Positions 1-28,103 of a stretch of 28,103 bases of DNA are shown in pieces. The stretch comes from a virus (taxonomy: Duplodnaviria; Heunggongvirae; Uroviricota; Caudoviricetes), in the IMG/VR virus record IMGVR_UViG_2529292905_000015. One strand, written 5' to 3'. The notes under the pieces were generated by a model. That model saw only the letters and a program-made list of their open reading frames with translations. It did no database searches and had not been told where the DNA came from. Position 1 is the first letter of the stretch; every line of letters begins with the position of its first letter. The translations under genes and the position numbers were made by a program.

Positions 1-1032
1 TTATTTGATTTCAATTTTGTCCCACTCCCTGCCTCTGTCATCACGATACTGTGATGCCATGGTGTCCGACTTATGCCCGAGAAGATGTTGAGCAAACTTA
101 TCGCTTATCTGCTTCTCATAGAGTCTTGCAGACAAACTGCGCAACTCGTGAAAGGTAGGCGGATCCCCTTCGAAGGAAAGACCTGATGCTTTTCGTGCGC
201 GCATAAAATACCTTGATACTGTGCCGGATGAAAGCGGTTCACGACGAGTAGATGCAATTATGGTTTCTCCGCCAAGAATCTCTTTGCATTTATCAAGTGT
301 TTCCTTCATTGATATCCCGAGAGCATCAACATGCAATGTTGTAGGGATGGCAATTTTTACGCCTGTTTTGCTTTGTTCGACATAAAGATATCCATCTACG
401 ATATCAGACCACTTCATTTCGCATAAATCACCAACTCGCTGCCCGGTAACAACAGCCAGTTCCATTGCAAGTCTGAGCCAACATGGTGATGATTCTGCTG
501 CTTGATAAATTTTCAGGTATTCGTCAGCCGTAAGTCTTGATCTCCTTACCTCTGATTTTGCTGCGCGAGTGGCAGCGACCGGGTTTGTTGTTATATGGCC
601 TTCAGCTATTGCCTCTCGGAATGCATCGCTCAGTGTTGATCTGATTAACTTGGCTGACGCCGCCTTGCCCTCGTCTATGTATCCATTGAGCATTGCCGCA
701 ATTTCTTTTGTGGTGATGTCTTCAAGTGGAGCATCAGGCAGCCCCCTCCTTATTGCTTTAATTTTGCTCATGTAATTTATGAGTGTCTTCTGCTTGATTC
801 CTCTGCTGGCGAGGATTTTTTCGTAGCGATCAAGCCATGAATGTAACGTAACAGAATTATCACTGTTGATTCTCGCTGTCAGAGGCTTGTGTTTGTGTCC
901 TGAAAATAACTCAATATTGGCCTGTATTGCTTCAGTGATTGCTATCCTCCTGTCTCGGCCTAAACCAAACTCTTTACCCGTCCTTGGGTCCCTGTAGCAG
1001 TAATATCCATTGTTTCTTATATAAAGGTTAGG
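1..1032 (-). pseudogene. int: Lambda-type tyrosine integrase (Int), truncated at its 5' end by IS629; lacks about the first 12 codons. The ORF-track extension to 1125 runs into the IS and begins on a TTG.
   Basis: Translation is near-identical to remembered lambda Int from PNLYIRNNGYYCYRDPRTGKEF through the C-terminal REWDKIEIK; stop codon at 1-3 on the minus strand; the IS629 terminal repeat starts at 1033 immediately after the PNLY codons. Confidence 0.85.
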
Positions 1033-1086
1033 TGAACCGCCCCGGGAATCCTGGAGACTAAACTCCCTGAGAAAGAGGTAAACAGG

Positions 1087-1413
1087 ATGACTAAAAATAC
1101 ACGTTTTTCCCCCGAGGTCCGTCAACGGGCAGTTCGTATGGTTCTGGAAAGTCAGGGCGAATATGACTCACAATGGGCGGCAATTTGTTCCATTGCCCCA
1201 AAGATTGGCTGTACGCCAGAGACTCTGCGTGTGTGGGTTCGTCAGCATGAGCGGGATACCGGGAGTGGTGATGGTGGATTCACCACCGCTGAACGTCAGC
1301 GTCTGAAAGAGCTGGAACGTGAAAATCGTGAACTGCGCCGCAGTAACGATATCCTTCGCCAGGCTTCCGCTTATTTTGCGAAGGCGGAGTTCGACCGCCT
1401 CTGGAAAAAATAA
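1087..1413 (+). CDS. IS629 transposase OrfA (helix-turn-helix DNA-binding subunit)
   Basis: 108 aa, [30 protein letters not shown]..., matches remembered IS629/IS1203 OrfA; ends in an A-run followed by TAATG that overlaps the OrfB start. Confidence 0.9.
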
Positions 1414-2300
1414 TGCCACTGCTGGATAAGCTGCGTGAGCAGTACGGGGTCGGACCGGTATGCAGTGAACTGCATATTGCCCCGTCAACGTATTACCACT
1501 GTCAGCAACAGCGACATCATCCTGATAAACGCAGTGCCCGTGCGCAGCGCGATGACTGGCTGAAGAGAGAGATACAGCGCGTATACGATGAAAATCATCA
1601 GGTGTACGGTGTGCGTAAAGTCTGGCGCCAGTTGTTACGCGAAGGTATCAGGGTGGCCAGATGTACAGTGGCGCGCCTCATGGCGGTTATGGGACTTGCC
1701 GGTGTTCTCCGGGGTAAAAAGGTCCGTACTACCGTCAGCCGGAAAGCCGTTTCCGCAGGCGACCGCGTAAACCGTCAGTTCGTGGCAGAACGTCCTGACC
1801 AGCTGTGGGTGGCTGATTTTACTTACGTCAGCACATGGCAGGGCTTCGTCTATGTGGCGTTCATCATTGATGTGTTTGCCGGATGCATCGTGGGGTGGCG
1901 AGTCTCATCGTCTATGGAAACGACATTCGTGCTGGATGCACTGGAGCAGGCGTTGTGGGCCCGTCGGCCGTCCGGCACAGTCCATCACAGTGATAAAGGT
2001 TCTCAGTATGTATCACTGGCCTATACGGAGCGACTAAAAGAAGCAAAACTGCTGGCATCAACAGGGAGTACAGGTGACTCGTATGACAACGCGATGGCGG
2101 AGAGCATCAATGGTCTTTACAAAGCGGAGGTAATACACCGTAAGAGCTGGAAAAACCGTGCAGAAGTGGAACTGGCCACACTCACGTGGGTGGACTGGTA
2201 TAACAATCGACGATTGCTGGGAAGGCTGGGTCATATCCCTCCGGCAGAAGCAGAAAAAGCTTATTATGCTTCCATCAGAAACGATGATCTGGCAGCCTGA
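1413..2300 (+). CDS. IS629 transposase OrfB (DDE catalytic subunit), in the -1 frame relative to OrfA; normally made as an OrfAB fusion by frameshifting
   Basis: 295 aa with an integrase-core DDE-type sequence (…WVADFTYV…HSDKGSQY…YDNAMAES…); the frame relationship to OrfA is typical of IS3-family elements. Confidence 0.9.
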   Translation: MPLLDKLREQYGVGPVCSELHIAPSTYYHCQQQRHHPDKRSARAQRDDWLKREIQRVYDENHQVYGVRKVWRQLLREGIRVARCTVARLMAVMGLAGVLRGKKVRTTVSRKAVSAGDRVNRQFVAERPDQLWVADFTYVSTWQGFVYVAFIIDVFAGCIVGWRVSSSMETTFVLDALEQALWARRPSGTVHHSDKGSQYVSLAYTERLKEAKLLASTGSTGDSYDNAMAESINGLYKAEVIHRKSWKNRAEVELATLTWVDWYNNRRLLGRLGHIPPAEAEKAYYASIRNDDLAA

Positions 2301-2370
2301 GTTCACAGATAAAACACTCTCCAGGAAAACCGGGGCGGTTCAGCCTTTTTATTTGGGGGAGAGGGAAGTC

Positions 2371-2811
2371 ATGAAAAAACTAACCTTTGAAATTCGATCT
2401 CCAGCACATCAGCAAAACGCTATTCACGCAGTACAGCAAATCCTTCCAGACCCAACCAAACCAATCGTAGTAACCATTCAGGAACGCAACCGCAGCTTAG
2501 ACCAAAACAGGAAGCTATGGGCCTGCTTAGGTGACGTCTCTCGTCAGGTTGAATGGCATGGTCGCTGGCTGGATGCAGAAAGCTGGAAGTGTGTGTTTAC
2601 CGCAGCATTAAAGCAGCAGGATGTTGTTCCTAACCTTGCCGGGAATGGCTTTGTGGTAATAGGCCAGTCAACCAGCAGGATGCGTGTAAGCGAATTTGCG
2701 GAGCTATTAGAGCTTATACAGGCATTCGGTACAGAGCGTGGCGTTAAGTGGTCAGACGAAGCGCGACTGGCTCTCGAATGGAAAGCGCGATGGGGAGACA
2801 GGGCGGCATGA
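2371..2811 (+). CDS. ninB: NinB (Orf family recombination protein)
   Basis: [56 protein letters not shown]... is near-identical to lambda NinB; ATG at 2371 preceded by GGGAGAGGGAAG; stop overlaps the next start (ATGA). Confidence 0.9.
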
Positions 2812-3770: not shown

Positions 3771-4432
3771 ATATCTACGAAAGAATTGATGGCAGCAAAT
3801 ACCGAAATATTTGGGTAGTTGGCGATCTGCACGGATGCTACACGAACCTGATGAAAAAACTGGAGACGATAGGATTCGACACCAAAAAAGACCTGCTTAT
3901 CTCGGTGGGCGATTTGGTTGATCGCGGTACAGAGAACGTAGAATGCCTGGAATTAATCACATTCCCCTGGTTCAGAGCTGTACGTGGAAACCATGAGCAA
4001 ATGATGATTGATGGCTTATCAGAGCGTGGAAACGTCAATCACTGGCTGCTTAATGGCGGTGGCTGGTTCTTTAATCTCGATTACGACAAAGAAATTCTGG
4101 CTAAAGCTCTTGCCCATAAAGCAGATGAACTTCCGTTAATCATCGAACTGGTGAGTAAAGGAAAAAAATATGTCATCTGCCACGCCGATTATCCTTGTGA
4201 TAAATACGAGTTTGGAAAGCCAGTTGATCATCAGCAGGTAATCTGGAACCGCGAACGAATCAGCAACTCACAAGACGGGATCGTGAAAGAAATCAAAGGC
4301 GCGGACACGTTCATCTTTGGTCATACGCCAGCAGTGAAACCACTCAAATTTGCCAACCAGATGTATATCGATACTGGCGCAGTGTTCTGCGGAAACCTCA
4401 CATTGATTCAGGTACAGGGAGAAGGCGCATGA
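3767..4432 (+). CDS. ninI: NinI-type serine/threonine protein phosphatase (PPP family)
   Basis: GDLHGCY and GNHE metallophosphatase motifs; near-identical to remembered lambda NinI (221 aa); ATGA overlap with ninG; GAGG Shine-Dalgarno upstream. ninC, ninD and ninH are absent. Confidence 0.9.
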
Positions 4433-4560
4433 GACTCGAAAGCGTAGCTAAATTTCATTCGCCAAAAAGCCCGATGATGAGCGACTCACTACTGGCCACA
4501 GTTTATTGGTTTTCGTAACTGAGTCATTTTATTATTTTATTGCAACTTTTAATCTTTTAT

Positions 4561-4610
4561 AGTGCGAAATAAATGGAGCTGGCATTCATTTCGCACTTTA
4601 TGTTTTTGTT
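4561..4610 (+). terminator. Putative intrinsic terminator: perfect 10-bp inverted repeat (AGTGCGAAAT / ATTTCGCACT) with a 17-nt loop, followed by TTATGTTTTTGTT
   Basis: Read directly from the sequence; lies between ninI and the convergent minus-strand cargo gene. The T-rich tail is on the plus strand only. Confidence 0.45.
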
Positions 4611-4643
4611 GGACTTATGTTATTTTGATTGAATTCAATTCAG

Positions 4644-5603
4644 TTAAAAAAAGAAGGTGATTGCTCCATTTATAAATGAATAGTCATCCCCTGTCTTGAA
4701 TTCTGATGTTACTTTATTAAATGCTAGTGTGAAGGCTACAGGTGCATACCCAATTGTTGCGCCAACTTGATATTCATCAACAGTTTTGTTTAGCGATACT
4801 GTTGTTTGTTTCGTCTGTATTGTTTTTCCTTCGAGAGTATAGTTGCGATTGACATCTCGTCTTTCCATACCTGCAAAAATCTTGTATTTGAATCCGCTTG
4901 TATCGGACATATGCATTAAACCACGGGGAGCCAGCAGACCAAAGCCATTATCCGAATTGAAGGTTTTATCATTACCAATGGCAATGGTTGCGCCATATGC
5001 TACATATTGAAATAAGTTTCCAGTAACAGCAGAAACTTCAGGGTATAATCCAACATTAGCACCTAAAATATCCATACTTGGTGTCATGGATAGCATCCCT
5101 TTTACAGTATAACCGTAGCGATTCTCTATTTGATCATCCCATGCATGATATTTTTCTGCCCCAATAATCTCATGAGCTTTATTTTGTACTTTCTGACCGC
5201 CTGCGTCGGGGCCAACAACACCTATGTCAGTACCTAATCGATAGCGAATCCAGTCATTCGCAAGGGAGTTCCATTCAATACCAGTGTGAGTGTATGCACT
5301 AAAAGCTCTGTCTCCAGTTACAGCTGTGTTGTGTCTTTTATTACTGCCTGATGGAGAGTAAATATCTTGCGCAATATGGAGAGATAATTGGCTCGAGTCT
5401 GAGATATCGTGGCTATATCCCAGAAATAAGCCTTGTGAGTAATCATCTCTGTTTTCATGTTTATTGCCATAAATATCATTAAGTATTGGTTGAAACTTCC
5501 CTGCATCATCATTTGCTAATGATAATGCAAGGCTGTTCGCGATAGCTGAACACGTGGTAAATGACAGAGCAATAAAGACGCCAGCGATGACACTTTTTTT
5601 CAT
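4644..5603 (-). CDS. Outer-membrane beta-barrel protein, cargo gene; tentatively LpxR-like lipid A 3'-O-deacylase
   Basis: 319 aa; N-terminal signal peptide MKKSVIAGVFIALSFTTCSA; alternating amphipathic segments; C-terminal aromatic FFF typical of a beta-barrel signature; AT-rich with atypical codon usage; antisense to the flanking phage genes. Size and position recall the prophage-borne LpxR of EHEC, but this is from memory, not a sequence match. Confidence 0.7.
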   Translation of the reverse strand: MKKSVIAGVFIALSFTTCSAIANSLALSLANDDAGKFQPILNDIYGNKHENRDDYSQGLFLGYSHDISDSSQLSLHIAQDIYSPSGSNKRHNTAVTGDRAFSAYTHTGIEWNSLANDWIRYRLGTDIGVVGPDAGGQKVQNKAHEIIGAEKYHAWDDQIENRYGYTVKGMLSMTPSMDILGANVGLYPEVSAVTGNLFQYVAYGATIAIGNDKTFNSDNGFGLLAPRGLMHMSDTSGFKYKIFAGMERRDVNRNYTLEGKTIQTKQTTVSLNKTVDEYQVGATIGYAPVAFTLAFNKVTSEFKTGDDYSFINGAITFFF

Positions 5604-5993
5604 ATGTTATTGTCTTCCTTTTTTTGAATGGTGCGCGTATTTTACATACATGAGTTTGTAATACAAGGTGCGTAATCAATATGATGTTTTATAATTGCGT
5701 GAGACAATTGATTTATTCGTTTTTTATTGCGGTTTTTATTATCTTTTAATGTAACGGTGTTTTTATTAAGTGTGTTTGCGTGGTGTTTTATGTTTTTTAT
5801 AATTTTTATTTTATTAAATTTAAATGCATTAGTAATGGCTATTCTATATAGCAATATAAGAACTGTTACAAAAAAAGGGGGGGCAATTACAGGTAGTTAT
5901 GGATGATGAGTGAAACAGATATTGGAGAACCGGGGAATGAATGATGTCTGAGTCTTATATATCAGAACTCCTTCGCTGTCGCTGGGGGCTCCT
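5604..5993. promoter_or_regulatory. Strongly AT-rich divergent intergenic region with phased T-tracts (GTTTTTATT repeats); probable promoter region for the cargo gene and Q, and a plausible curved-DNA / H-NS target
   Basis: Repeated T5-6 tracts spaced roughly 10-12 bp apart between about 5690 and 5820; sits between divergent genes. H-NS binding is inferred from composition only. Confidence 0.4.
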
Positions 5994-6767
5994 GTGCTTA
6001 TGTCGTTTCCCCGATTCGGTTTTGAACGATTACCGAATGTTGAAGAATTATGCCAAAATATAGAAAGGATTTACTGCATGAATACCCAATATTTACAGTA
6101 TGTTCGTGAGCAACTTATGGCAGCTACTGCTGACTTGAACGGAGCAACGAAAGGCCAGCTCGAAGCCTGGCAGGAGCATGCACAATTTGATACTGGTACA
6201 TACAAACGAAAGAAGCCGCGCATTCTGGATGTGGTAACTGGCAAGATGATTACGCTGGATAATACGCCGACTTCCGGTAAGCAGTCGTACGCAAAAGGTT
6301 CATCCATTGCTTTGGTCAGCCCGGTTGAATTCTCAACCTCTTCATGGCGCCGCGCGGTTTTGTCTCTCGATGAACATCAGAAAGCATGGTTGCTTTGGTG
6401 TTACAGCGAAAGCGTTCGATGGGGGCATCAGGTCACCATAACGCAATGGGCATGGAGCGAGTTTAAAGATTTGTTAAGTAACAGAAAAATTGCAGGTAAG
6501 ACACTGGATCGCCTGAAGACGTTAATCTGGCTGGCTGCACAGGATGTGAAGAGCGAACTTGCAGGGCGTGAGGCCTATGAATACCAGACACTGGCATCAT
6601 TGGTGGGAGTGACAACAAAAAACTGGTCCGAGACATTTACTGAACGCTGGGTTGCAATGAAGCACATTTTTCTACAGCTTGATAGTGATGCTTTATTGCT
6701 TGTGACGAGAACACGTTCAAAACAAAAGGCAGCATTTTTACAGCAAAATATTGCAAAACTGGATTAA
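5994..6767 (+). CDS. Late-gene antiterminator Q, long form; probable true start at ATG 6078 (MNTQYLQYVREQL...)
   Basis: Sits between the nin region and the PR'-tR' unit and lysis genes; resembles the roughly 250-aa Q proteins of E. coli cryptic prophages (from memory); the track ORF begins on GTG at 5994; ATG 6078 has an AGGA motif about 8 nt upstream. Confidence 0.6.
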   Translation: MLMSFPRFGFERLPNVEELCQNIERIYCMNTQYLQYVREQLMAATADLNGATKGQLEAWQEHAQFDTGTYKRKKPRILDVVTGKMITLDNTPTSGKQSYAKGSSIALVSPVEFSTSSWRRAVLSLDEHQKAWLLWCYSESVRWGHQVTITQWAWSEFKDLLSNRKIAGKTLDRLKTLIWLAAQDVKSELAGREAYEYQTLASLVGVTTKNWSETFTERWVAMKHIFLQLDSDALLLVTRTRSKQKAAFLQQNIAKLD

Positions 6768-6779
6768 AAGCCATATACT
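6751..6779 (+). promoter_or_regulatory. PR'-like late promoter: -35 TTGCAA (6751-6756), 17-bp spacer, -10 TATACT (6774-6779); the Q-utilisation site is expected to overlap
   Basis: Sigma-70 consensus-like hexamers with ideal spacing, immediately after the Q stop and about 35 nt upstream of a strong terminator; a -10-like TATGTT lies in the initially transcribed region, as at lambdoid pause sites. Confidence 0.5.
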
Positions 6780-6814
6780 TCATGCAAATTTGGTATGTTG
6801 TAAAAAATGTATAA

Positions 6815-6839
6815 ACCCGCTGCCGAGTGGGTTTTTTTT
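6815..6839 (+). terminator. tR'-like intrinsic terminator: 7-bp stem ACCCGCU / AGUGGGU (one G-U pair), GCCG loop, then eight T
   Basis: Hairpin plus T8 read directly from the sequence, about 35 nt downstream of the PR'-like -10. Confidence 0.7.
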
Positions 6840-6936
6840 ATGCCCTGAGTTGTACTTGTACGGTAAACATGCTGGCTGCTATGTAATAGAGTTTTTTTAG
6901 CCTGTAACCTCTTGACGGCATTGAATTGCTTTTGTT

Positions 6937-7695
6937 ATGAGTTGTAAGCCAATGTTATCATCTTGTATTGGGGTGGTTATGAAGGATGGTGCGCTGCTCA
7001 GGAGTTCTTCACTTTTTATTGCCTACATGGGATGCCTTGGATGGGGGAGTGCTTATTTCTATGGATGGGGTACTTCTTTTTACTACGGCTTCCCATGGTG
7101 GATTGTAGGTGCAGGTGTTGATGATGTTGCCAGAAGTTTATTTTTTGCAGTTATCGTCATTGCTATATTTCTTATCGGTTGGGGTATTGGTGTTGTATTC
7201 TTTTTCGCAGTGAAAAGAAAACATTCTATGCAAGAGCTAAATGTATTTCGCCTTTATTTTGCTGTGGAATTATTGTTTGTGCCGGCAATTATTGAGTTTT
7301 CTATATTGAGACAGAAGATTCAGGTACCTCTTTTGCTACTGTCAGCAGCGATTGCGCTGGCGGTTACAATTTCGATAAGATCTTATGGGCGATTTTTATC
7401 GGTATCATGCTTCTATGATAAGCCATTTATAAAAAAACATTTTTTTGAGATTGTGATGATTGCTTTTGTGGCATATTTCTGGCTTTTTTCATTTCTGACA
7501 GGATATTACAAACCACAGTTTAAGAAAGAATATGAAATGATTAATTATAATGATGGTTGGTATTATGTTCTTGCTCGTTATGATAATTGTCTGGTTTTGT
7601 CTACTTCTTTCAATGCAGGTAGTAAAAGGTTTGTCATTTATCAATCAGCACAAGATAAGAATCTTCAGGTTGATATTGTAAGGACCAGAATTTAA
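6937..7695 (+). CDS. Polytopic inner-membrane protein of unknown function (moron between Q and the lysis cassette); start ambiguous (ATG 6937, 6952 or 6979)
   Basis: About 5 predicted hydrophobic helices, an aromatic/Gly-rich N-terminal segment (GWGSAYFYGWGTSFYYGFPWW) and a roughly 60-aa hydrophilic C-terminal tail; AT-rich; possible own promoter TTGACG (6912-6917) with TATGAG about 18 bp downstream. Confidence 0.65.
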   Translation: MSCKPMLSSCIGVVMKDGALLRSSSLFIAYMGCLGWGSAYFYGWGTSFYYGFPWWIVGAGVDDVARSLFFAVIVIAIFLIGWGIGVVFFFAVKRKHSMQELNVFRLYFAVELLFVPAIIEFSILRQKIQVPLLLLSAAIALAVTISIRSYGRFLSVSCFYDKPFIKKHFFEIVMIAFVAYFWLFSFLTGYYKPQFKKEYEMINYNDGWYYVLARYDNCLVLSTSFNAGSKRFVIYQSAQDKNLQVDIVRTRI

Positions 7696-8125
7696 TTGGC
7701 TGCATAAATAATATTTTAAGTTGCAAGTTGGCTATTCGTAGGAATAGAACCTTAGGCATGCTGAATGCGTTTCCTGAACATTGTTTTATAAACTGTGTCT
7801 GCTTGCTGTTGTGATCCTGCTTTTAGTGATGGTGATGATGGATTTCACCAGCAGGATAATGTTGGTACTGACTGATGGCGCTCTGGTCTGCGGCATTGTG
7901 GTATTGCTGTGGCCGATGATGAAAGAACAGAATGAATAATTCTTGACTTTTTTGTTTACTGTTTATTAAAAAATCAACCGCATGGTGAATCCTCCTTGGA
8001 GGGGCTAAATGATCGAGTTTTAAGGGCACGTAGCGAGTTCTGTTTGATCATTGCAGAACTTAGCGGGAGGCGCCATGCGTACATCACTAATGTTATTTCC
8101 TTCTATCATTTTCCTTGTGAGTTCT

Positions 8126-8152
8126 GGCTGCGCATGGCGCGGCCTTTTTTTT
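8126..8152 (+). terminator. Strong intrinsic terminator: GGCUGCGC-AUG-GCGCGGCC hairpin followed by eight T
   Basis: 8-bp GC-rich stem with one G-U pair and a T8 tract, read directly; lies downstream of the moron and upstream of the lysis cassette. Confidence 0.7.
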
Positions 8153-8328
8153 ATGACCTGCCACTGGCAGATGGTCATCCTGTGATTTGATTCCGGTTCC
8201 GGCTTTTTAACTCTGTTCCTGTACACGGGAGAAATTCTATGTCGATTAATCGTTATGATATTGGTTACAAGAAGTACCACGTATTGTGTTGAGATAGAAA
8301 GCATGGTGCCAGAGGTAAATGCAGCAGC

Positions 8329-8380
8329 ATAATAAAAAAGAGCCAGCGCAGAAGAGAACGGGTAAAAGAGTCTGCGCTGG
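8329..8380 (-). terminator. Minus-strand terminator-like element: perfect 10-bp inverted repeat (CCAGCGCAGA / TCTGCGCTGG) with an 18-nt loop, followed on the minus strand by CTCTTTTTTATT
   Basis: Read directly; the U-rich tail exists only on the minus strand; a consensus-like minus-strand promoter lies about 55-110 bp upstream of it (see findings). Confidence 0.5.
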
Positions 8381-8560
8381 CGTGGGGATATTCCCCGTGG
8401 AGAAATGATATGTAACACACATCGGGAACCTTTCTATATAAACATTATCATTATTGTCAATCATAACAGTCAGGTATTATGACGTTTATGCATCAGGGCC
8501 ATCAGGAATTAACTGGTGGCTTTTTATTGTTGTCAGCTTCCGGATAACGGGAGACGGGGT

Positions 8561-8776
8561 ATGTACCAGATGGAAAAAATAACAACAGGTGTGTCATACA
8601 CCACGTCAGCGGTGGGGACGGGATACTGGCTACTGCAGTTGCTGGACAAAGTCTCCCCATCCCAGTGGGTGGCAATAGGCGTATTGGGTAGCTTGGTGTT
8701 TGGCTTGCTGACGTATCTGACAAACCTTTATTTCAAGATTAAAGAAGATAAGCGTAAGGCTGCGAGAGGTGAATAA
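8561..8776 (+). CDS. S: Class II holin, phage 21 S-type pinholin, with a dual-start motif (MYQMEK)
   Basis: [66 protein letters not shown] closely resembles remembered S21; two transmembrane segments; stop overlaps the endolysin start. Confidence 0.85.
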
Positions 8777-9273
8777 TGTCGCCATCATTACGCAAGGCTG
8801 TTGCTGCTGCTATTGGTGGTGGGGCTGTTGCCATAGCGTCTGTGCTCATCACTGGTCCGAGTGGTGACGATGGCCTGGAAGGTGTCAGCTACATACCATA
8901 CGAAGATATCGTTGGCGTATGGACTGTATGTCACGGACACACCGGAAAAGACATCATGCCCGGTAAAACGTATACCGAAGCAGAATGCAAAGCCCTCCTG
9001 AATAAAGACCTTGCCACGGTCGCCAGACAAATTAACCCGTACATCAAAGTCGATATACCGGAAACAACGCGCGGCGCTCTTTACTCGTTCGTTTACAACG
9101 TGGGCGCTGGTAATTTCAGAACATCGACGCTTCTTCGCAAAATAAACCAGGGTGATATCAAAGGCGCATGTGATCAGCTACGGCGCTGGACATACGCTGG
9201 CGGTAAGCAATGGAAAGGGCTGATGACTCGCCGCGAGATTGAGCGTGAAGTCTGTTTGTGGGGGCAACAATGA
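8776..9273 (+). CDS. R: SAR (signal-anchor-release) endolysin, lysozyme-type, phage 21 R-like
   Basis: N-terminal Gly/Ala-rich weakly hydrophobic segment ([20 protein letters not shown]) followed by a lysozyme-like domain; immediately follows the pinholin. Confidence 0.85.
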
Positions 9274-9737
9274 GCAGAGTAACCGCGATTATCTCCGCTC
9301 TGGTTATCTGCATCATCGTCTGCCTGTCATGGGCGGTTAATCATTACCGTGATAACGCCATCGCCTATAAAGAACAGCGTGATAAAAAAGTCAGTGAGCT
9401 GAAGCAGGCGACCGCCACCATTACTGACATGCAGCAGCGCCAGCGTGCTGCTGATGCACTCGATGCTAAATACACGAAGGAGTTAGCTGATGCGAAAGCT
9501 AAAAATGATGCTCTTCGGCGCAAGCTTGATAATGGTGGTCGGGTGTTCGTCAAAGGAAAATGCCCTGTGCCATCCTCAGACGAAACCTCCAGCGCCTCCG
9601 GCATGGGCAATGATGCCACCGTCGAACTCTCTCCAGTTGCTGGACGAAACGTTCTCGGTATCCGGGACGGAATTATCCGCGACCAAACAGCACTGAGAAC
9701 GCTTCAGGAATACATCAGGACGCAATGCCTTCGATGA
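9270..9737 (+). CDS. Rz: Rz i-spanin (inner-membrane spanin subunit)
   Basis: N-terminal transmembrane segment ([20 protein letters not shown]) then a coiled-coil-like charged periplasmic domain; ATGA overlap with the endolysin stop; contains the embedded Rz1 frame. Confidence 0.8.
9490..9696 (+). CDS. Rz1: Rz1 o-spanin (outer-membrane lipoprotein), embedded in the +1 frame of Rz
   Basis: Lipobox ...IMVVGCSS and a proline-rich mature region ([13 protein letters not shown]); N-terminus MRKLKMML resembles lambda Rz1; lies entirely within Rz. Confidence 0.75.
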
Positions 9738-9910
9738 TAGCGATAATTTTACTCATCATCCTTCACATCTGGCTCTGTAGACAGGGTGGTGCTCACTTCT
9801 GGAGTGAATCATGGTTAAACATCTCATTGCTGATGCTTGATATTGAGCATCTGGCGCGCGGTAAGGGGCTGCGTTGAGATAAGAGCCAGTCATTAAAAAT
9901 ACCTGGATTT

Positions 9911-9936
9911 AGCCTCGCATTCGCGGGGCTTTTTTA
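9911..9936 (+). terminator. Intrinsic terminator-like hairpin AGCCUCGC-AUUC-GCGGGGCU followed by T5
   Basis: Read directly, about 170 bp downstream of Rz. Confidence 0.5.
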
Positions 9937-10354
9937 TTGCCATTACAAAAGCCACTCCCTACAGAGTGGCTTTGATAATGGCTTATACCCTACACGGGAT
10001 AACTTAACTGATATCCCTTTTAACGGATAAAGGTATTCAAGCCTGACACATCATGCGCTGTATCGTCGCTGTATTCCCGCATTAACCATGACCGTAGCCC
10101 GACGGGGAACTCCTTCTGCGCGAGTGTGCGGGAATAATCAAAAACGATGCACACCGGGTTTTTACCGCGCTAATGATTCGCGGGTTTGTCCCTCATGCTC
10201 GCCAGTCCTGTGCGGGGGTGGAAGAAACAGGACACTCACACAGATTCTTGTGGGTCGATGCTATTCCTTTCTGGATTATCCCGATGCCATTCATGCAAAG
10301 GCTGTATCAGACGTTCGTCATGGCTTTCAGGCTGACGGCTCCTCCCGGTGGGGT

Positions 10355-10551
10355 GGCCTGCCACGGGGCGGGAGCGTCGCGGAAAAAGGCTAGTTTTTGC
10401 ATTTTTATCGGCCACCATCATCTTTGCATCTTATTGATTATTAATGGTTATTTGTTTTTTGTATGTCGAATTGAGTGTTTTTTGTTCGACATCGAACGCG
10501 TTTTCTTAAAGTTGTTCGCACGATGCATGTTTAAAGCTCTCCGGAGGAAAT
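10355..10551. other. Probable cos region (cosN-like GGGGCGGGAGCGTCGCGG at 10365-10382, then an AT-rich cosB-like segment with short palindromes)
   Basis: GC-rich motif resembling the remembered lambda left end GGGCGGCGACCTCGCGGG; it lies about 187 bp upstream of the terminase small subunit start (lambda cosN to Nu1 is about 190 bp); downstream palindromes TGTCGAA...TTCGACA and TTCGACATCGAA. Confidence 0.45.
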
Positions 10552-25424: not shown

Positions 25425-25452
25425 AAACCGCCTCAGGGCGGTTTTGTCGTTT
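25425..25452 (+). terminator. Hairpin AAACCGCC-TCAG-GGCGGTTT followed by a T-rich tract (TTTTGTCGTTT) between I and J; possible attenuator
   Basis: Perfect 8-bp stem read directly; the tail is only moderately U-rich. Confidence 0.4.
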
Positions 25453-25463
25453 CTGGAGCGTGA

Positions 25464-28103
<2,640 letters not shown>

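What the first reader, a model, noticed from the sequence alone, without database searches (positions are those of the whole stretch)
6900..7700. Membrane-protein moron in the Q-to-lysis slot, where Stx phages carry stx
An AT-rich gene for a roughly 240-250-aa protein with about five hydrophobic helices, an unusual aromatic/glycine-rich N-terminal segment (GWGSAYFYGWGTSFYYGFPWW) and a roughly 60-aa soluble C-terminal domain lies directly downstream of tR', with its own candidate promoter. I recognise no lambda counterpart. Cargo in this slot is typically a virulence, superinfection-exclusion or abortive-infection function, and with the LpxR-like gene it makes two envelope-directed cargo genes in one prophage. 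This is a candidate for an undescribed function.
Basis: partly seen in the sequence, partly recalled or inferred. Interest (0 to 1): 0.7.

Follow-up and report, generated by a model that had tools for sequence, protein, structure and literature searches.

The report
Prophage membrane gene, TfpB/STM1630 family
The gene is real and strongly conserved, but it is already catalogued: it encodes an inner-membrane protein of unknown function, identical to a phage 434 and E. coli O157/O55 gene, whose relatives sit beside virulence genes in EHEC, ETEC, Shigella and Salmonella.

Summary
An AT-rich gene (36% GC against 51% for the window) lies between the late terminator tR' and the lysis genes. It encodes a protein with five predicted helices, a Gly/aromatic N-terminal motif and a C-terminal beta domain of about 55 residues. 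The conserved start is at 6979, giving 238 aa rather than 252.

The gene is not new. The protein is 100% identical (the DNA 99.8%) to phage 434 gene CPT_434_68, and 100% identical to a "hypothetical protein" of O157:H7 and O55:H7 prophages. It belongs to Pfam PF27470 "TfpB", which newer RefSeq records name "STM1630 family protein". No function is known for the family.

Relatives are intact and under purifying selection (dN/dS 0.05-0.18) in several settings:
- as the first gene after Q in several lambdoid prophages, including an Stx2k phage
- next to lpxR, in three different arrangements
- next to eltAB on ETEC plasmids
- on the Shigella virulence plasmid
- next to sseJ in Salmonella (STM1630, expressed in macrophages)
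- inside the Moraxella pilin inversion segment

There is no match to defence families, solved structures or viral structure models.

My best reading is a lysogenic-conversion envelope protein, non-enzymatic and probably oligomeric. Its molecular mechanism is unresolved.

The parts
6979..7695 (+). tfpB/STM1630-family gene: 238 aa plus stop. The longest ORF starts at 6937 and the RefSeq start is 6952.
   Evidence: ORF. Homologues are 237-238 aa and the start codon is aligned in eight contexts. PF27470 tag. PHROG 1521, E 2e-154. dN/dS 0.055-0.086.
6970..6976 (+). Shine-Dalgarno-like GGGGTGG, 3 nt upstream of the ATG at 6979.
   Evidence: Sequence. Purine-rich GAGG/GGGG is present at the same place in the ETEC, C. 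rodentium and E. albertii copies.
6912..6941 (+). Candidate promoter P1: TTGACG, 17-18 nt spacer, TG-n-TATGAG.
   Evidence: Read from the sequence. CTCTTGACG...TTTGTTATG is conserved in E. albertii, Escherichia sp. MOD1 and the ETEC Ent plasmid. Homology with the ETEC plasmid begins at 6908. Function not shown.
6932..6961 (+). Candidate promoter P2: TTGTTA, 18 nt spacer, TATCAT, with a TG. It overlaps a TTGT-N6-TTGT repeat that the phage 434 record marks as a CII-consensus site.
   Evidence: Promoter scan (9 of 12 matches; the scan overall is not enriched over shuffles). 434 annotation. Function not shown.
6751..6779 (+). Late promoter pR' of the Q82-type module (TTGCAA-17-TATACT).
   Evidence: It overlaps the last bases of Q, which ends at 6767. 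Assignment as pR' is by position and by knowledge of phage 82-type late regions, so it is an inference.
6813..6842 (+). tR'-like intrinsic terminator: a 9-bp stem followed by a T-run.
   Evidence: Annotated as a terminator at the equivalent place in phage 434.
6078..6767 (+). Late antiterminator Q, phage 82 type.
   Evidence: PF06323, E 1.7e-91. RefSeq "bacteriophage antitermination protein Q".
7781..7939 (+). Small DUF3927 (TciB-like) membrane protein gene, 85 nt downstream. Probably co-transcribed.
   Evidence: PF13064, E 3.4e-14. PHROG 1470. No terminator-like site lies between the two genes. It is not a conserved partner in other contexts.
8126..8154 (+). Terminator-like hairpin (8 pairs, 7 of them G-C) with a T-run, which would close the tfpB-DUF3927 unit.
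   Evidence: A terminator is annotated at the equivalent place in phage 434.
4644..5603 (-). lpxR, the outer-membrane lipid A 3'-O-deacylase. It is divergent from tfpB, with ylcG and Q between them.
   Evidence: PF09982, E 6.8e-40. RefSeq name. EHEC literature. It is adjacent to tfpB homologues in C. rodentium and in H19/ECOR29-type prophages.

Best explanation
**What is shown.** The gene is a conserved accessory (lysogenic-conversion, "moron") gene of a 434-like lambdoid prophage. It encodes a member of the TfpB/STM1630 family (Pfam PF27470).

**What is inferred from sequence and model.**
- The protein is an inner-membrane protein of 238 aa with five helices.
- The lysine/arginine-rich loops at 79-81 and 134-153 face the cytoplasm. 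This places the conserved aromatic FPWW...ARSL stretch at the periplasmic membrane face and the beta domain of about 55 residues in the periplasm.
- The first helix carries a family-wide ladder of small residues every fourth position (21, 25, 29, 33, 37), flanked by an aromatic ladder (W22, Y26, W30). No acid/base or nucleophile set is conserved.
- I therefore take it to be a non-enzymatic, tightly packed and probably oligomeric membrane protein. It would bind or gate something at the periplasmic face rather than catalyse a reaction.

**Inferred expression.** In the lysogen it would be transcribed from its own promoter just upstream. After induction it would be transcribed as the first gene of the Q-antiterminated late transcript.

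**Inferred role.** It changes envelope properties to the benefit of the bacterial host in animal hosts, and it acts on its own rather than as part of a multi-gene system. In the clade to which this copy belongs it may work in the same pathway as the lipid A deacylase LpxR. The precise molecular target is unknown.
For: **Identity**
- The protein is 100% identical to phage 434 CPT_434_68; the 1.3-kb region is 99.8% identical.
- The region is 100% identical in O157:H7 and O55:H7 genomes.
- All 108 homologues carry PF27470, named TfpB.
- Moraxella bovis tfpB, inside the pilin inversion segment, is a member.
- RefSeq names it "STM1630 family protein".
- The STM1630 identity was verified from a published primer that encodes NSSMLLAYLGGLGWG, from the 717-bp length, and from the position next to sseJ.

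**Accessory status**
- GC is 36% against 51%.
- The gene is absent from lambda.
- It is absent from the viable phage 434B.

**Own expression**
- The upstream promoter-like stretch is conserved on ETEC plasmids.

**Function retained outside phages**
- All 12 copies compared are intact at 237-238 codons, with dN/dS 0.05-0.18 for every pair but one. They come from phages, plasmids and chromosomes.
- 106 Shigella plasmid records hold a match, among them pWR100.
- Lone chromosomal copies occur in Avibacterium and Pasteurella.

**Host-associated role**
- The profile search of 1.84 billion representative proteins gives only 72 hits. Those traced to an organism are Enterobacteriaceae, Pasteurellaceae, Neisseriaceae or Moraxella.
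- Neighbours are lpxR, eltAB, sseJ, stx2k and iroBC/bor.
- STM1630 is bound by H-NS and expressed in SPI-2-inducing medium and in macrophages. Mutants were reported attenuated in calves and chickens. Deletion changes replication inside macrophages.

**Non-enzymatic, packed helix**
- See the conservation tables.

**Architecture**
Against: - No experiment addresses this gene itself.
- The promoter is only a conserved consensus match, and the scan as a whole was not enriched over shuffled sequence.
- The AlphaFold2 model is of moderate confidence only (pLDDT 71).
- Topology rests on the positive-inside rule alone.
- The Salmonella phenotypes are weak or inconsistent. Hypermotility seen in a screen was not among the phenotypes confirmed on re-test. 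Deletion raised, rather than lowered, replication in macrophages.
- The gene after Q was not among the Ler-activated genes in EPEC or EHEC arrays, although lpxR was.
- Linkage to lpxR is confined to one clade of 66-71% identity, so it could be inherited rather than functional. A plasmid-borne lpxR has no tfpB within 5 kb.
- Being the first gene after Q under three different Q families could equally point to a function that serves the phage.
Confidence: 0.5

Rival explanations
1. It is a superinfection-exclusion or abortive-infection protein: an inner-membrane protein that blocks DNA entry of incoming phages (or colicin action), or kills the infected cell. This would protect the lysogen and, late in infection, the phage's own factory.
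For: - It is a prophage accessory gene encoding a polytopic inner-membrane protein, and it is probably expressed in the lysogen.
- It is the first gene after Q in prophages with three different Q families.
- It lies next to a DUF3927 gene whose PHROG label mentions colicin resistance.
Against: - No match to any of 5027 PADLOC defence models, either for this protein or for 23 family members.
- No similar viral structure model.
- Many members lie outside phages and defence islands: among housekeeping genes in Pasteurellaceae, on the Shigella virulence plasmid, beside sseJ in Salmonella, and inside a pilin switch in Moraxella.
- The Salmonella member is regulated with the SPI-2/PhoP virulence genes.
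[quoted passage not shown] P1 has no TfpB homologue.
Confidence: 0.17
2. It is a dedicated inner-membrane partner or regulator of LpxR-dependent lipid A 3'-O-deacylation. For example, it might control when LPS becomes a substrate, or handle the products. On this view lpxR and tfpB form a two-gene envelope-remodelling cassette.
For: - lpxR and tfpB are neighbours in three different arrangements.
  - Divergent with ylcG and Q between them: the window and phage 434.
  - Divergent and 177 bp apart on the C. rodentium chromosome, with no phage genes nearby.
  - Convergent and about 255 bp apart in H19/ECOR29-type prophages.
- An invariant Arg and an aromatic belt at the predicted periplasmic membrane face would suit binding of a phosphorylated glycolipid. 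This is an inference.
- Salmonella, Y. enterocolitica, EHEC and C. rodentium have both gene families.
Against: - All three arrangements fall in one TfpB clade of 66-71% identity, so common descent can explain the linkage.
- Most family members have no lpxR nearby: ETEC, Shigella, Salmonella, Yersinia, Pasteurellaceae and Moraxella.
- A plasmid-borne lpxR lacks tfpB.
- Ler activates lpxR but not the gene after Q.
- A periplasmic domain of 55 residues cannot reach an outer-membrane enzyme directly (inference).
- The PmrD-family neighbour that first seemed to support a lipid A theme is in fact IraM.
Confidence: 0.13
3. It is a late phage function tied to lysis or cargo release: a holin-like or antiholin-like membrane protein, or a factor that helps release toxin or progeny. 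It would be expressed mainly from pR' after Q antitermination.
For: - It is the first gene of the late transcript, upstream of holin and endolysin.
- A homologue lies between Q and stx2k, and another lies beside eltAB.
- A glycine-zipper-like helix is a feature of some pore-forming membrane proteins (plus general knowledge).
Against: - Phage 434B lacks the gene and still lyses cells.
- The window's prophage has lost its early region, so Q-driven late expression is doubtful there, yet the gene is 100% conserved.
- Homologues under purifying selection occur with no lysis genes nearby.
- At 238 aa with five helices and a beta domain, it is unlike known holins. A terminator-like site and another gene separate it from the lysis cassette.
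Confidence: 0.07
4. It is a type IV pilus accessory protein, as the family name suggests.
For: - The namesake gene lies between the two alternative pilin gene ends in the Moraxella bovis inversion segment.
- All genera that carry the family can make type IV pili (general knowledge).
Against: - There are no pilus genes near the gene in the window or in any enterobacterial, Avibacterium or Pasteurella context examined.
- tfpB is frameshifted in Moraxella lacunata, which keeps a full pilin gene and piv.
Confidence: 0.04

Closest known systems
Phage 434 gene CPT_434_68 ("putative membrane protein") and the O157:H7/O55:H7 prophage protein WP_001302581.1
   Same: It is the same gene. The protein is 100% identical and the DNA 99.8-100% identical. 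The neighbours are also the same: lpxR, ylcG, Q, then this gene, then the DUF3927 gene.
   Different: Phage 434 has an extra SASA-family esterase gene between the DUF3927 gene and the holin, which the window lacks. The window's prophage has lost its early region. The annotated start is 9 codons upstream of the conserved start.
Salmonella Typhimurium STM1630 (SL1344_1560)
   Same: Same family, 46% identity over the full length, 238 aa. It is also AT-rich horizontally acquired DNA beside virulence genes (sseJ, steB), and it has its own promoter.
   Different: It is chromosomal and not in a prophage. No lpxR or Q lies beside it. Some experimental data exist: H-NS binding, expression in SPI-2 medium and in macrophages, and weak infection phenotypes. 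Its function is still unknown.
Moraxella bovis/lacunata TfpB, the namesake of Pfam PF27470
   Same: Same family, 27-29% identity. It has the same N-terminal AY-YGWG...YGYPWW...ARSL motif, the same helix count and the same C-terminal YYIL beta domain.
   Different: It lies inside the invertible type IV pilin segment next to piv, not in a phage. The M. bovis protein is 261 aa with a longer tail. The gene is frameshifted in M. lacunata. Its function is also unknown.
Classical cargo of the lambdoid Q-to-lysis slot and other morons (stx, LT-II, the nmpC/lc porin, nanS-p esterase; bor and lom elsewhere)
   Same: It shares the position and regulatory logic. It lies downstream of pR'/tR', probably has its own promoter for expression in the lysogen, has foreign base composition and is dispensable for phage growth.
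   Different: There is no sequence or fold relation. This is an inner-membrane protein, not a toxin or an outer-membrane protein. It can share the slot with stx2k rather than replacing it.
Prophage inner-membrane superinfection-exclusion proteins (P22 SieA, HK97 gp15, T4 Imm)
   Same: They are the same general kind of thing: a phage-encoded polytopic inner-membrane protein that is not needed for lytic growth.
   Different: No similarity was detected in PADLOC, Pfam, BFVD or PDB. I did not compare it directly with those proteins' sequences. Unlike them, this family is common outside phages.

Membership tests
TfpB / STM1630 family (Pfam PF27470) | Significant full-length sequence similarity to family members, including the namesake Moraxella TfpB and Salmonella STM1630. 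| tested here: met
   All 108 homologues, including the identical protein, carry the precomputed PF27470 tag. The profile search and the genome scan recover Moraxella bovis tfpB and STM1630. The local Pfam copy lacks this model, so I did not score it directly.
TfpB / STM1630 family (Pfam PF27470) | Shared architecture: about 240 aa, an N-terminal Gly/aromatic motif (AY-YGWG...YG-PWW...ARSL), further hydrophobic helices, and a C-terminal YY(V/I)L beta domain. | tested here: met
   Alignments A1-A3 and the conservation table. AlphaFold2 model.
Lambdoid moron (lysogenic-conversion cassette) | Inserted between conserved phage modules, absent from close relatives, and dispensable for lytic growth. 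| tested here: met
   It lies between Q/tR' and the lysis genes. It is absent from 434B, which forms plaques. Only 3 of 50,697 phage records carry it.
Lambdoid moron (lysogenic-conversion cassette) | Base composition differs from that of the phage backbone. | tested here: met
   36% GC against 51% for the window, with third codon positions at 31%.
Lambdoid moron (lysogenic-conversion cassette) | Own promoter and terminator, and transcription in the repressed prophage. | tested here: inconclusive
   [not shown]
Anti-phage defence / superinfection exclusion | Homology to a known defence or exclusion protein. | tested here: not met
   PADLOC gives no hit at E <= 0.1 for the protein, and only three single-member chance hits (E 0.018-0.68) among 23 family members.
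Anti-phage defence / superinfection exclusion | Protection phenotype against phage infection. | not testable with these tools
   This needs plaque assays.
Holin / lysis accessory | A small membrane protein in the lysis cassette that is required for, or times, lysis. | tested here: not met
   It is 238 aa with five helices and a beta domain. A separate PF04971 holin is present at 8561-8776. A gene and a terminator-like site separate it from the cassette. 434B lyses without it.
Lipid A / LPS modifying enzyme | Conserved catalytic residues, or homology to a known transferase or hydrolase. | tested here: not met
   Family-wide invariant residues are Ala, Gly, Tyr, Trp and Phe. The only near-invariant polar residues are S10, S11, R52, S53 and R91. 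There is no Pfam, PDB-sequence or fold match.
Type IV pilus system component | Encoded with pilus genes and needed for piliation. | tested here: not met
   No pilus genes are in the window or in the enterobacterial and Pasteurellaceae contexts. The gene is frameshifted in M. lacunata beside an intact pilin gene. Need for piliation itself was not testable.

The most novel reading that the evidence does not exclude
TfpB/STM1630 proteins are a so far unrecognised class of oligomeric inner-membrane envelope modulators, spread by phages, plasmids and islands among mucosal pathogens. In the clade that includes this gene they would act together with LpxR to control lipid A deacylation, and so innate immune recognition. 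That would make lpxR-tfpB a two-gene immune-evasion cassette, and would give one mechanism to orphan genes in EHEC, ETEC, Shigella, Salmonella and Moraxella.
Probability: 0.12. Interest if true: 0.7.

Novelty: already known. Interest (0 to 1): 0.38.

Why it matters
The gene and its family are already in the databases, so the finding is not a discovery of a new element. Its value is as a pointer. About a fifth of complete E. coli genomes (1197 of 5426) carry family DNA. Intact, selected copies sit beside stx2k, LT, lpxR and sseJ, and on the Shigella virulence plasmid. Yet no function is known.

The cross-context picture assembled here gives concrete, cheap experiments for an orphan family found in several major enteric pathogens. 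Its main elements are:
- one family linking the Moraxella pilin switch gene tfpB, Salmonella STM1630 and the phage 434/EHEC gene
- repeated placement as the first gene after Q
- linkage to lpxR in three rearranged forms

If the LpxR link were real, it would add a component to a known immune-evasion pathway.

Tried and rejected
**Searches that found nothing**
- Local Pfam-A, NCBIfam and PADLOC gave no hit for the protein. Pfam and PADLOC scans of 23 family members, and a Pfam scan of 7 very distant members, gave only chance-level hits.
- A PDB sequence search with the family profile gave nothing at E <= 10.
- Foldseek against viral models gave nothing at E <= 0.001.
- The afdb50 library was unavailable.

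**Leads that I corrected or dropped**
- I first recalled "tci" as a phage 434 locus. [quoted passage not shown] It applies only to the DUF3927 neighbour, and P1 has no TfpB homologue.
- Literature searches for TfpB returned mostly unrelated acronyms.
- A PmrD-family gene next to lpxR-tfpB looked like support for a lipid A theme, but RefSeq names it IraM.
- The hypermotility of a Salmonella STM1630 mutant was not among the phenotypes confirmed on re-test.
- The apparent "essentiality" of STM1630 in transposon screens is attributed by the authors to H-NS binding.
- DUF3927 as an obligate partner is rejected: it is absent from the other contexts.
- The upstream ATGs at 6937 and 6952 are not conserved as start codons.
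- The minus-strand ORFs at the right end of the window are spurious, because gpJ runs off the end there.
Full report
**1. The observation**

The window has an ORF at 6937..7695 on the + strand (252 aa).

The gene is AT-rich. It is 36% GC with third codon positions at 31%, against 51% for the window.

Upstream lies a phage-82-type Q gene at 6078-6767 (PF06323, E 1.7e-91). It is followed by a promoter-like TTGCAA-17-TATACT at 6751-6779 and a hairpin with a T-run at 6813-6842. The phage 434 record annotates that hairpin as a terminator.

Downstream come a 52-aa DUF3927 gene (7781-7939), a terminator-like hairpin (8126-8154), then a class II holin, a SAR endolysin and Rz. So the gene is indeed in the Q-to-lysis slot.

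The true start is most likely the ATG at 6979, for three reasons:
- Homologues are 237-238 aa.
- An alignment of eight upstream regions from different contexts lines up only from this codon, which is GTG in ETEC.
- One relative has a 1-base indel that puts the upstream ATGs out of frame.

dN/dS against E. albertii and Escherichia sp. MOD1 is 0.055-0.086. It is a real gene under selection.

**2. What it is**

- The 1.3-kb region is 100% identical in O157:H7 and O55:H7 chromosomes. There RefSeq calls the product a hypothetical protein, WP_001302581.1.
- It is 99.8% identical in phage 434, where the gene is CPT_434_68, "putative membrane protein". The protein is 100% identical.
- The window itself best matches an O55:H7 prophage. 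Its early region has been replaced by an IS3-family element between int and ninB.
- PHROGs places the protein in phrog_1521, of unknown function.
- The local Pfam, NCBIfam and PADLOC libraries give nothing.
- All 108 homologues in the large protein collection carry the newer Pfam tag PF27470, named "TfpB".
- Newer RefSeq records call the protein "STM1630 family protein".

Both names were checked.
- The Moraxella bovis hit is a 1.9-kb contig: a pilin C-terminal fragment, a 261-aa TfpB gene, and the other pilin C-terminal fragment on the opposite strand. That is the pilin inversion segment.
- The Salmonella member lies next to sseJ. It matches STM1630 by length (717 bp) and by a published deletion primer that encodes NSSMLLAYLGGLGWG.

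**3. Extent of the family**

A profile search of 1.84 billion representative proteins finds only 72 proteins at E <= 0.001. Those traced to an organism are Enterobacteriaceae, Pasteurellaceae, Neisseriaceae or Moraxella, all animal-associated.

Family DNA is present in 1197 of 5426 complete E. coli genomes, in up to four places per genome. It is in only 3 of 50,697 phage records and in 156 plasmid records, 106 of them Shigella.

**4. Genomic contexts**

| Context | Identity to the window protein |
|---|---|
| Window and phage 434: lpxR(-), ylcG, Q, pR'/tR', tfpB, DUF3927 gene | 100% |
| C. rodentium chromosome: frameshifted lpxR(-), 177 bp, tfpB(+); no phage genes | 66% |
| H19/ECOR29-type Stx-like prophages: Q, methylase, tRNAs, tfpB(+), lpxR(-), iraM, nanS-p esterase, holin | 68% |
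| Prophages with Q (PF06323) followed at once by tfpB, including Stx2k prophage STEC309: Q, tfpB, two genes, three tRNAs, stx2kAB, iraM, holin | 56% |
| Y. enterocolitica: NinG, Q (PF06530), tfpB, IS | 45% |
| ETEC Ent plasmids: tfpB divergent from eltAB, 866 bp apart | 58-59% |
| Shigella pWR100 and 105 other Shigella plasmid records: between virA and spa40, among IS elements | 57% |
| E. coli island with iroC, iroB, tfpB, bor | 57% |
| Salmonella: sseJ, STM1630 | 46% |
| Avibacterium and Pasteurella: lone gene among housekeeping genes | about 30% for Avibacterium (29-32%) |
| Moraxella: pilin inversion segment; frameshifted in M. lacunata | 27-29% |

All 12 copies compared are intact at 237-238 codons, with dN/dS of 0.05-0.18 for every pair but one. 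The closest pair, which has few substitutions, gives 0.33. No partner gene is conserved across these contexts, so the protein probably works on its own.

**5. The protein**

AlphaFold2 with 29 sequences gives pLDDT 71 and pTM 0.64. The model has five long helices and a five-strand C-terminal domain.

Lys/Arg-rich loops at 79-81 and 134-153 should be cytoplasmic by the positive-inside rule. That puts the FPWW...DD..ARSL stretch and the C-terminal domain in the periplasm. This holds whether or not the weakly hydrophobic first helix spans the membrane (inference).

Across the whole family, positions 21, 25, 29, 33 and 37 are small residues (G, A or S). Positions 22, 26 and 30 are W, Y and W. Such a small-xxx-small ladder next to an aromatic ladder is typical of tightly packed, often oligomeric, membrane helices (general knowledge).

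The invariant residues are A25, Y26, W30, W40, A51, G175, Y195 and F218. The only near-invariant polar residues are S10, S11, R52, S53 and R91. That does not look like a catalytic site.

No fold relative was found:
- No viral structure model matches at E <= 0.001.
- No PDB sequence matches at E <= 10.

**6. Expression**

Two overlapping sigma-70-like sites lie just upstream:
- TTGACG at 6912-6917, paired with TG-n-TATGAG.
- TTGTTA at 6932-6937, paired with TATCAT at 6956-6961. This one overlaps a TTGT-N6-TTGT repeat that the 434 annotators marked as a CII consensus.

The scan as a whole is not enriched over shuffled sequence. The argument is conservation: homology with the ETEC plasmid copy starts at 6908, and the -35 and -10-like elements are kept there, where no pR' exists.

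After induction the gene would also be the first gene of the Q-antiterminated late transcript (inference from position).

**7. Literature on relatives**

For STM1630:
- Its function is unknown.
[quoted passage not shown] Typhi.
- It is bound by H-NS, which explains why transposon screens scored it as "required".
- It is expressed in SPI-2-inducing medium and inside macrophages in strain 4/74.
- It is silenced by two promoter SNPs in all ST313 strains tested.
- Mutants were reported attenuated in calves and chickens.
- Deletion in 4/74 raised fold replication in macrophages, with no growth defect in LB.
- It is co-regulated with the SPI-2/PhoP virulence genes.

Hypermotility seen in a screen was not among the phenotypes confirmed on re-test.

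The neighbouring lpxR of EHEC is a characterised, Ler/Pch-activated lipid A 3'-O-deacylase that dampens TLR4 signalling. In EPEC arrays Ler activated lpxR, its downstream neighbour and, weakly, Q. The gene after Q was not listed.

Phage 434B, in which the Q-to-lysis segment is replaced by DLP12 DNA, is a viable clear-plaque phage. The gene is therefore dispensable for lytic growth.

**8. Interpretation**

The shown facts are identity, family, architecture, accessory status and selection in and out of phages.

The most economical reading is a lysogenic-conversion inner-membrane protein that acts alone at the periplasmic face of the inner membrane. It is probably an oligomer and it serves the bacterium in animal hosts. 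I put this at about 0.5. The molecular target is unknown.

| Rival | My probability | For | Against |
|---|---|---|---|
| Superinfection exclusion or abortive infection | 0.17 | Location in a prophage accessory slot | No homology to defence proteins; many non-phage copies |
| Dedicated partner of LpxR | 0.13 | Three rearranged adjacencies | Confined to one clade; lpxR occurs without it |
| Lysis or cargo-release function | 0.07 | First gene of the late transcript | 434B lyses without it; conserved in a defective prophage |
| Type IV pilus role | 0.04 | Moraxella context | No pilus genes in the window or in any enterobacterial, Avibacterium or Pasteurella context; frameshifted in M. lacunata |

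**9. Novelty and score**

The gene is already known as a sequence and as a family. Only its function is unknown.

The useful by-product is the cross-context map, in particular:
- tfpB, STM1630 and the 434/EHEC gene are one family.
- The gene is repeatedly the first gene after Q.
- It co-resides with stx2k, LT, lpxR and sseJ.

This makes an orphan family of several major pathogens easy to test. Interest 0.38.

Noticed in passing
window 1-2400: The prophage is defective. A lambda-type integrase gene (1-1125, minus strand) abuts an IS3-family element (1087-2300, with an ALIL frameshift pseudoknot at 1368-1484) and then ninB. No immunity, N, O or P genes are present.
   Followed up: partly
[not shown]
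   Followed up: partly
window 7781-7939: A small DUF3927 (TciB-like) membrane protein gene follows tfpB by 85 nt. [quoted passage not shown]
   Followed up: partly
window 8190-8516, compared with L001 5539-7389: Phage 434 carries a 1.85-kb SASA-family (NanS-p-like) carbohydrate esterase gene between the DUF3927 gene and the holin. The window lacks it. The minus-strand ORF at 8020-8418, which RefSeq annotates as hypothetical, overlaps the terminator-like hairpin and has no family match, so it is probably not a gene.
   Followed up: partly
L133 (E. coli STEC309, NZ_CP041435) 6082-10545: An Stx2k prophage has Q, then a TfpB homologue (56% identity), then two genes and three tRNAs, then stx2kA/B, then iraM. 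So this family can share the Q-to-lysis slot with Shiga toxin genes.
   Followed up: yes
L117 (pUMNK88_Ent) 3987-6714, and L003-L007: On ETEC enterotoxin plasmids a TfpB homologue lies 866 bp from eltAB and is divergent from it, amid IS elements. This may be a relic of a prophage origin for the LT locus.
   Followed up: partly
L120-L122 and L139 (ECOR29): In some Stx-like prophages the place where stx would be holds tfpB(+), lpxR(-) and iraM(-). The precomputed Pfam hit "PmrD" on the third gene is really the anti-adaptor IraM.
   Followed up: yes
L027 (Moraxella lacunata) 4350-7571, and L024 (M. bovis): This is the classic pilin inversion locus: piv, a pilin gene fragment, tfpB, and the full pilin gene on the other strand. 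tfpB is split by a frameshift in M. lacunata (5974-6561 and 6551-6757) but intact in M. bovis.
   Followed up: partly
L008 (contig JAIITD010000172.1, labelled a Veillonella sp. MAG): A 3-kb contig binned as Veillonella encodes TfpB and DUF3927 proteins 100% identical to the window's. It is almost certainly a mis-binned Escherichia contig.
   Followed up: no
window 25433-28103: The long minus-strand ORFs here (135, 312 and 157 aa) have no family match. They lie inside the tail-tip gene J, which runs off the end of the window, so they are spurious. This region is 100% identical to O55:H7 strain DEC5E.
   Followed up: yes
E. coli complete genomes: O157:H7 genomes show a second, more divergent place matching tfpB besides the one in this prophage. 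lpxR is single-copy in almost all genomes that have it. I did not locate the second copy.
   Followed up: no
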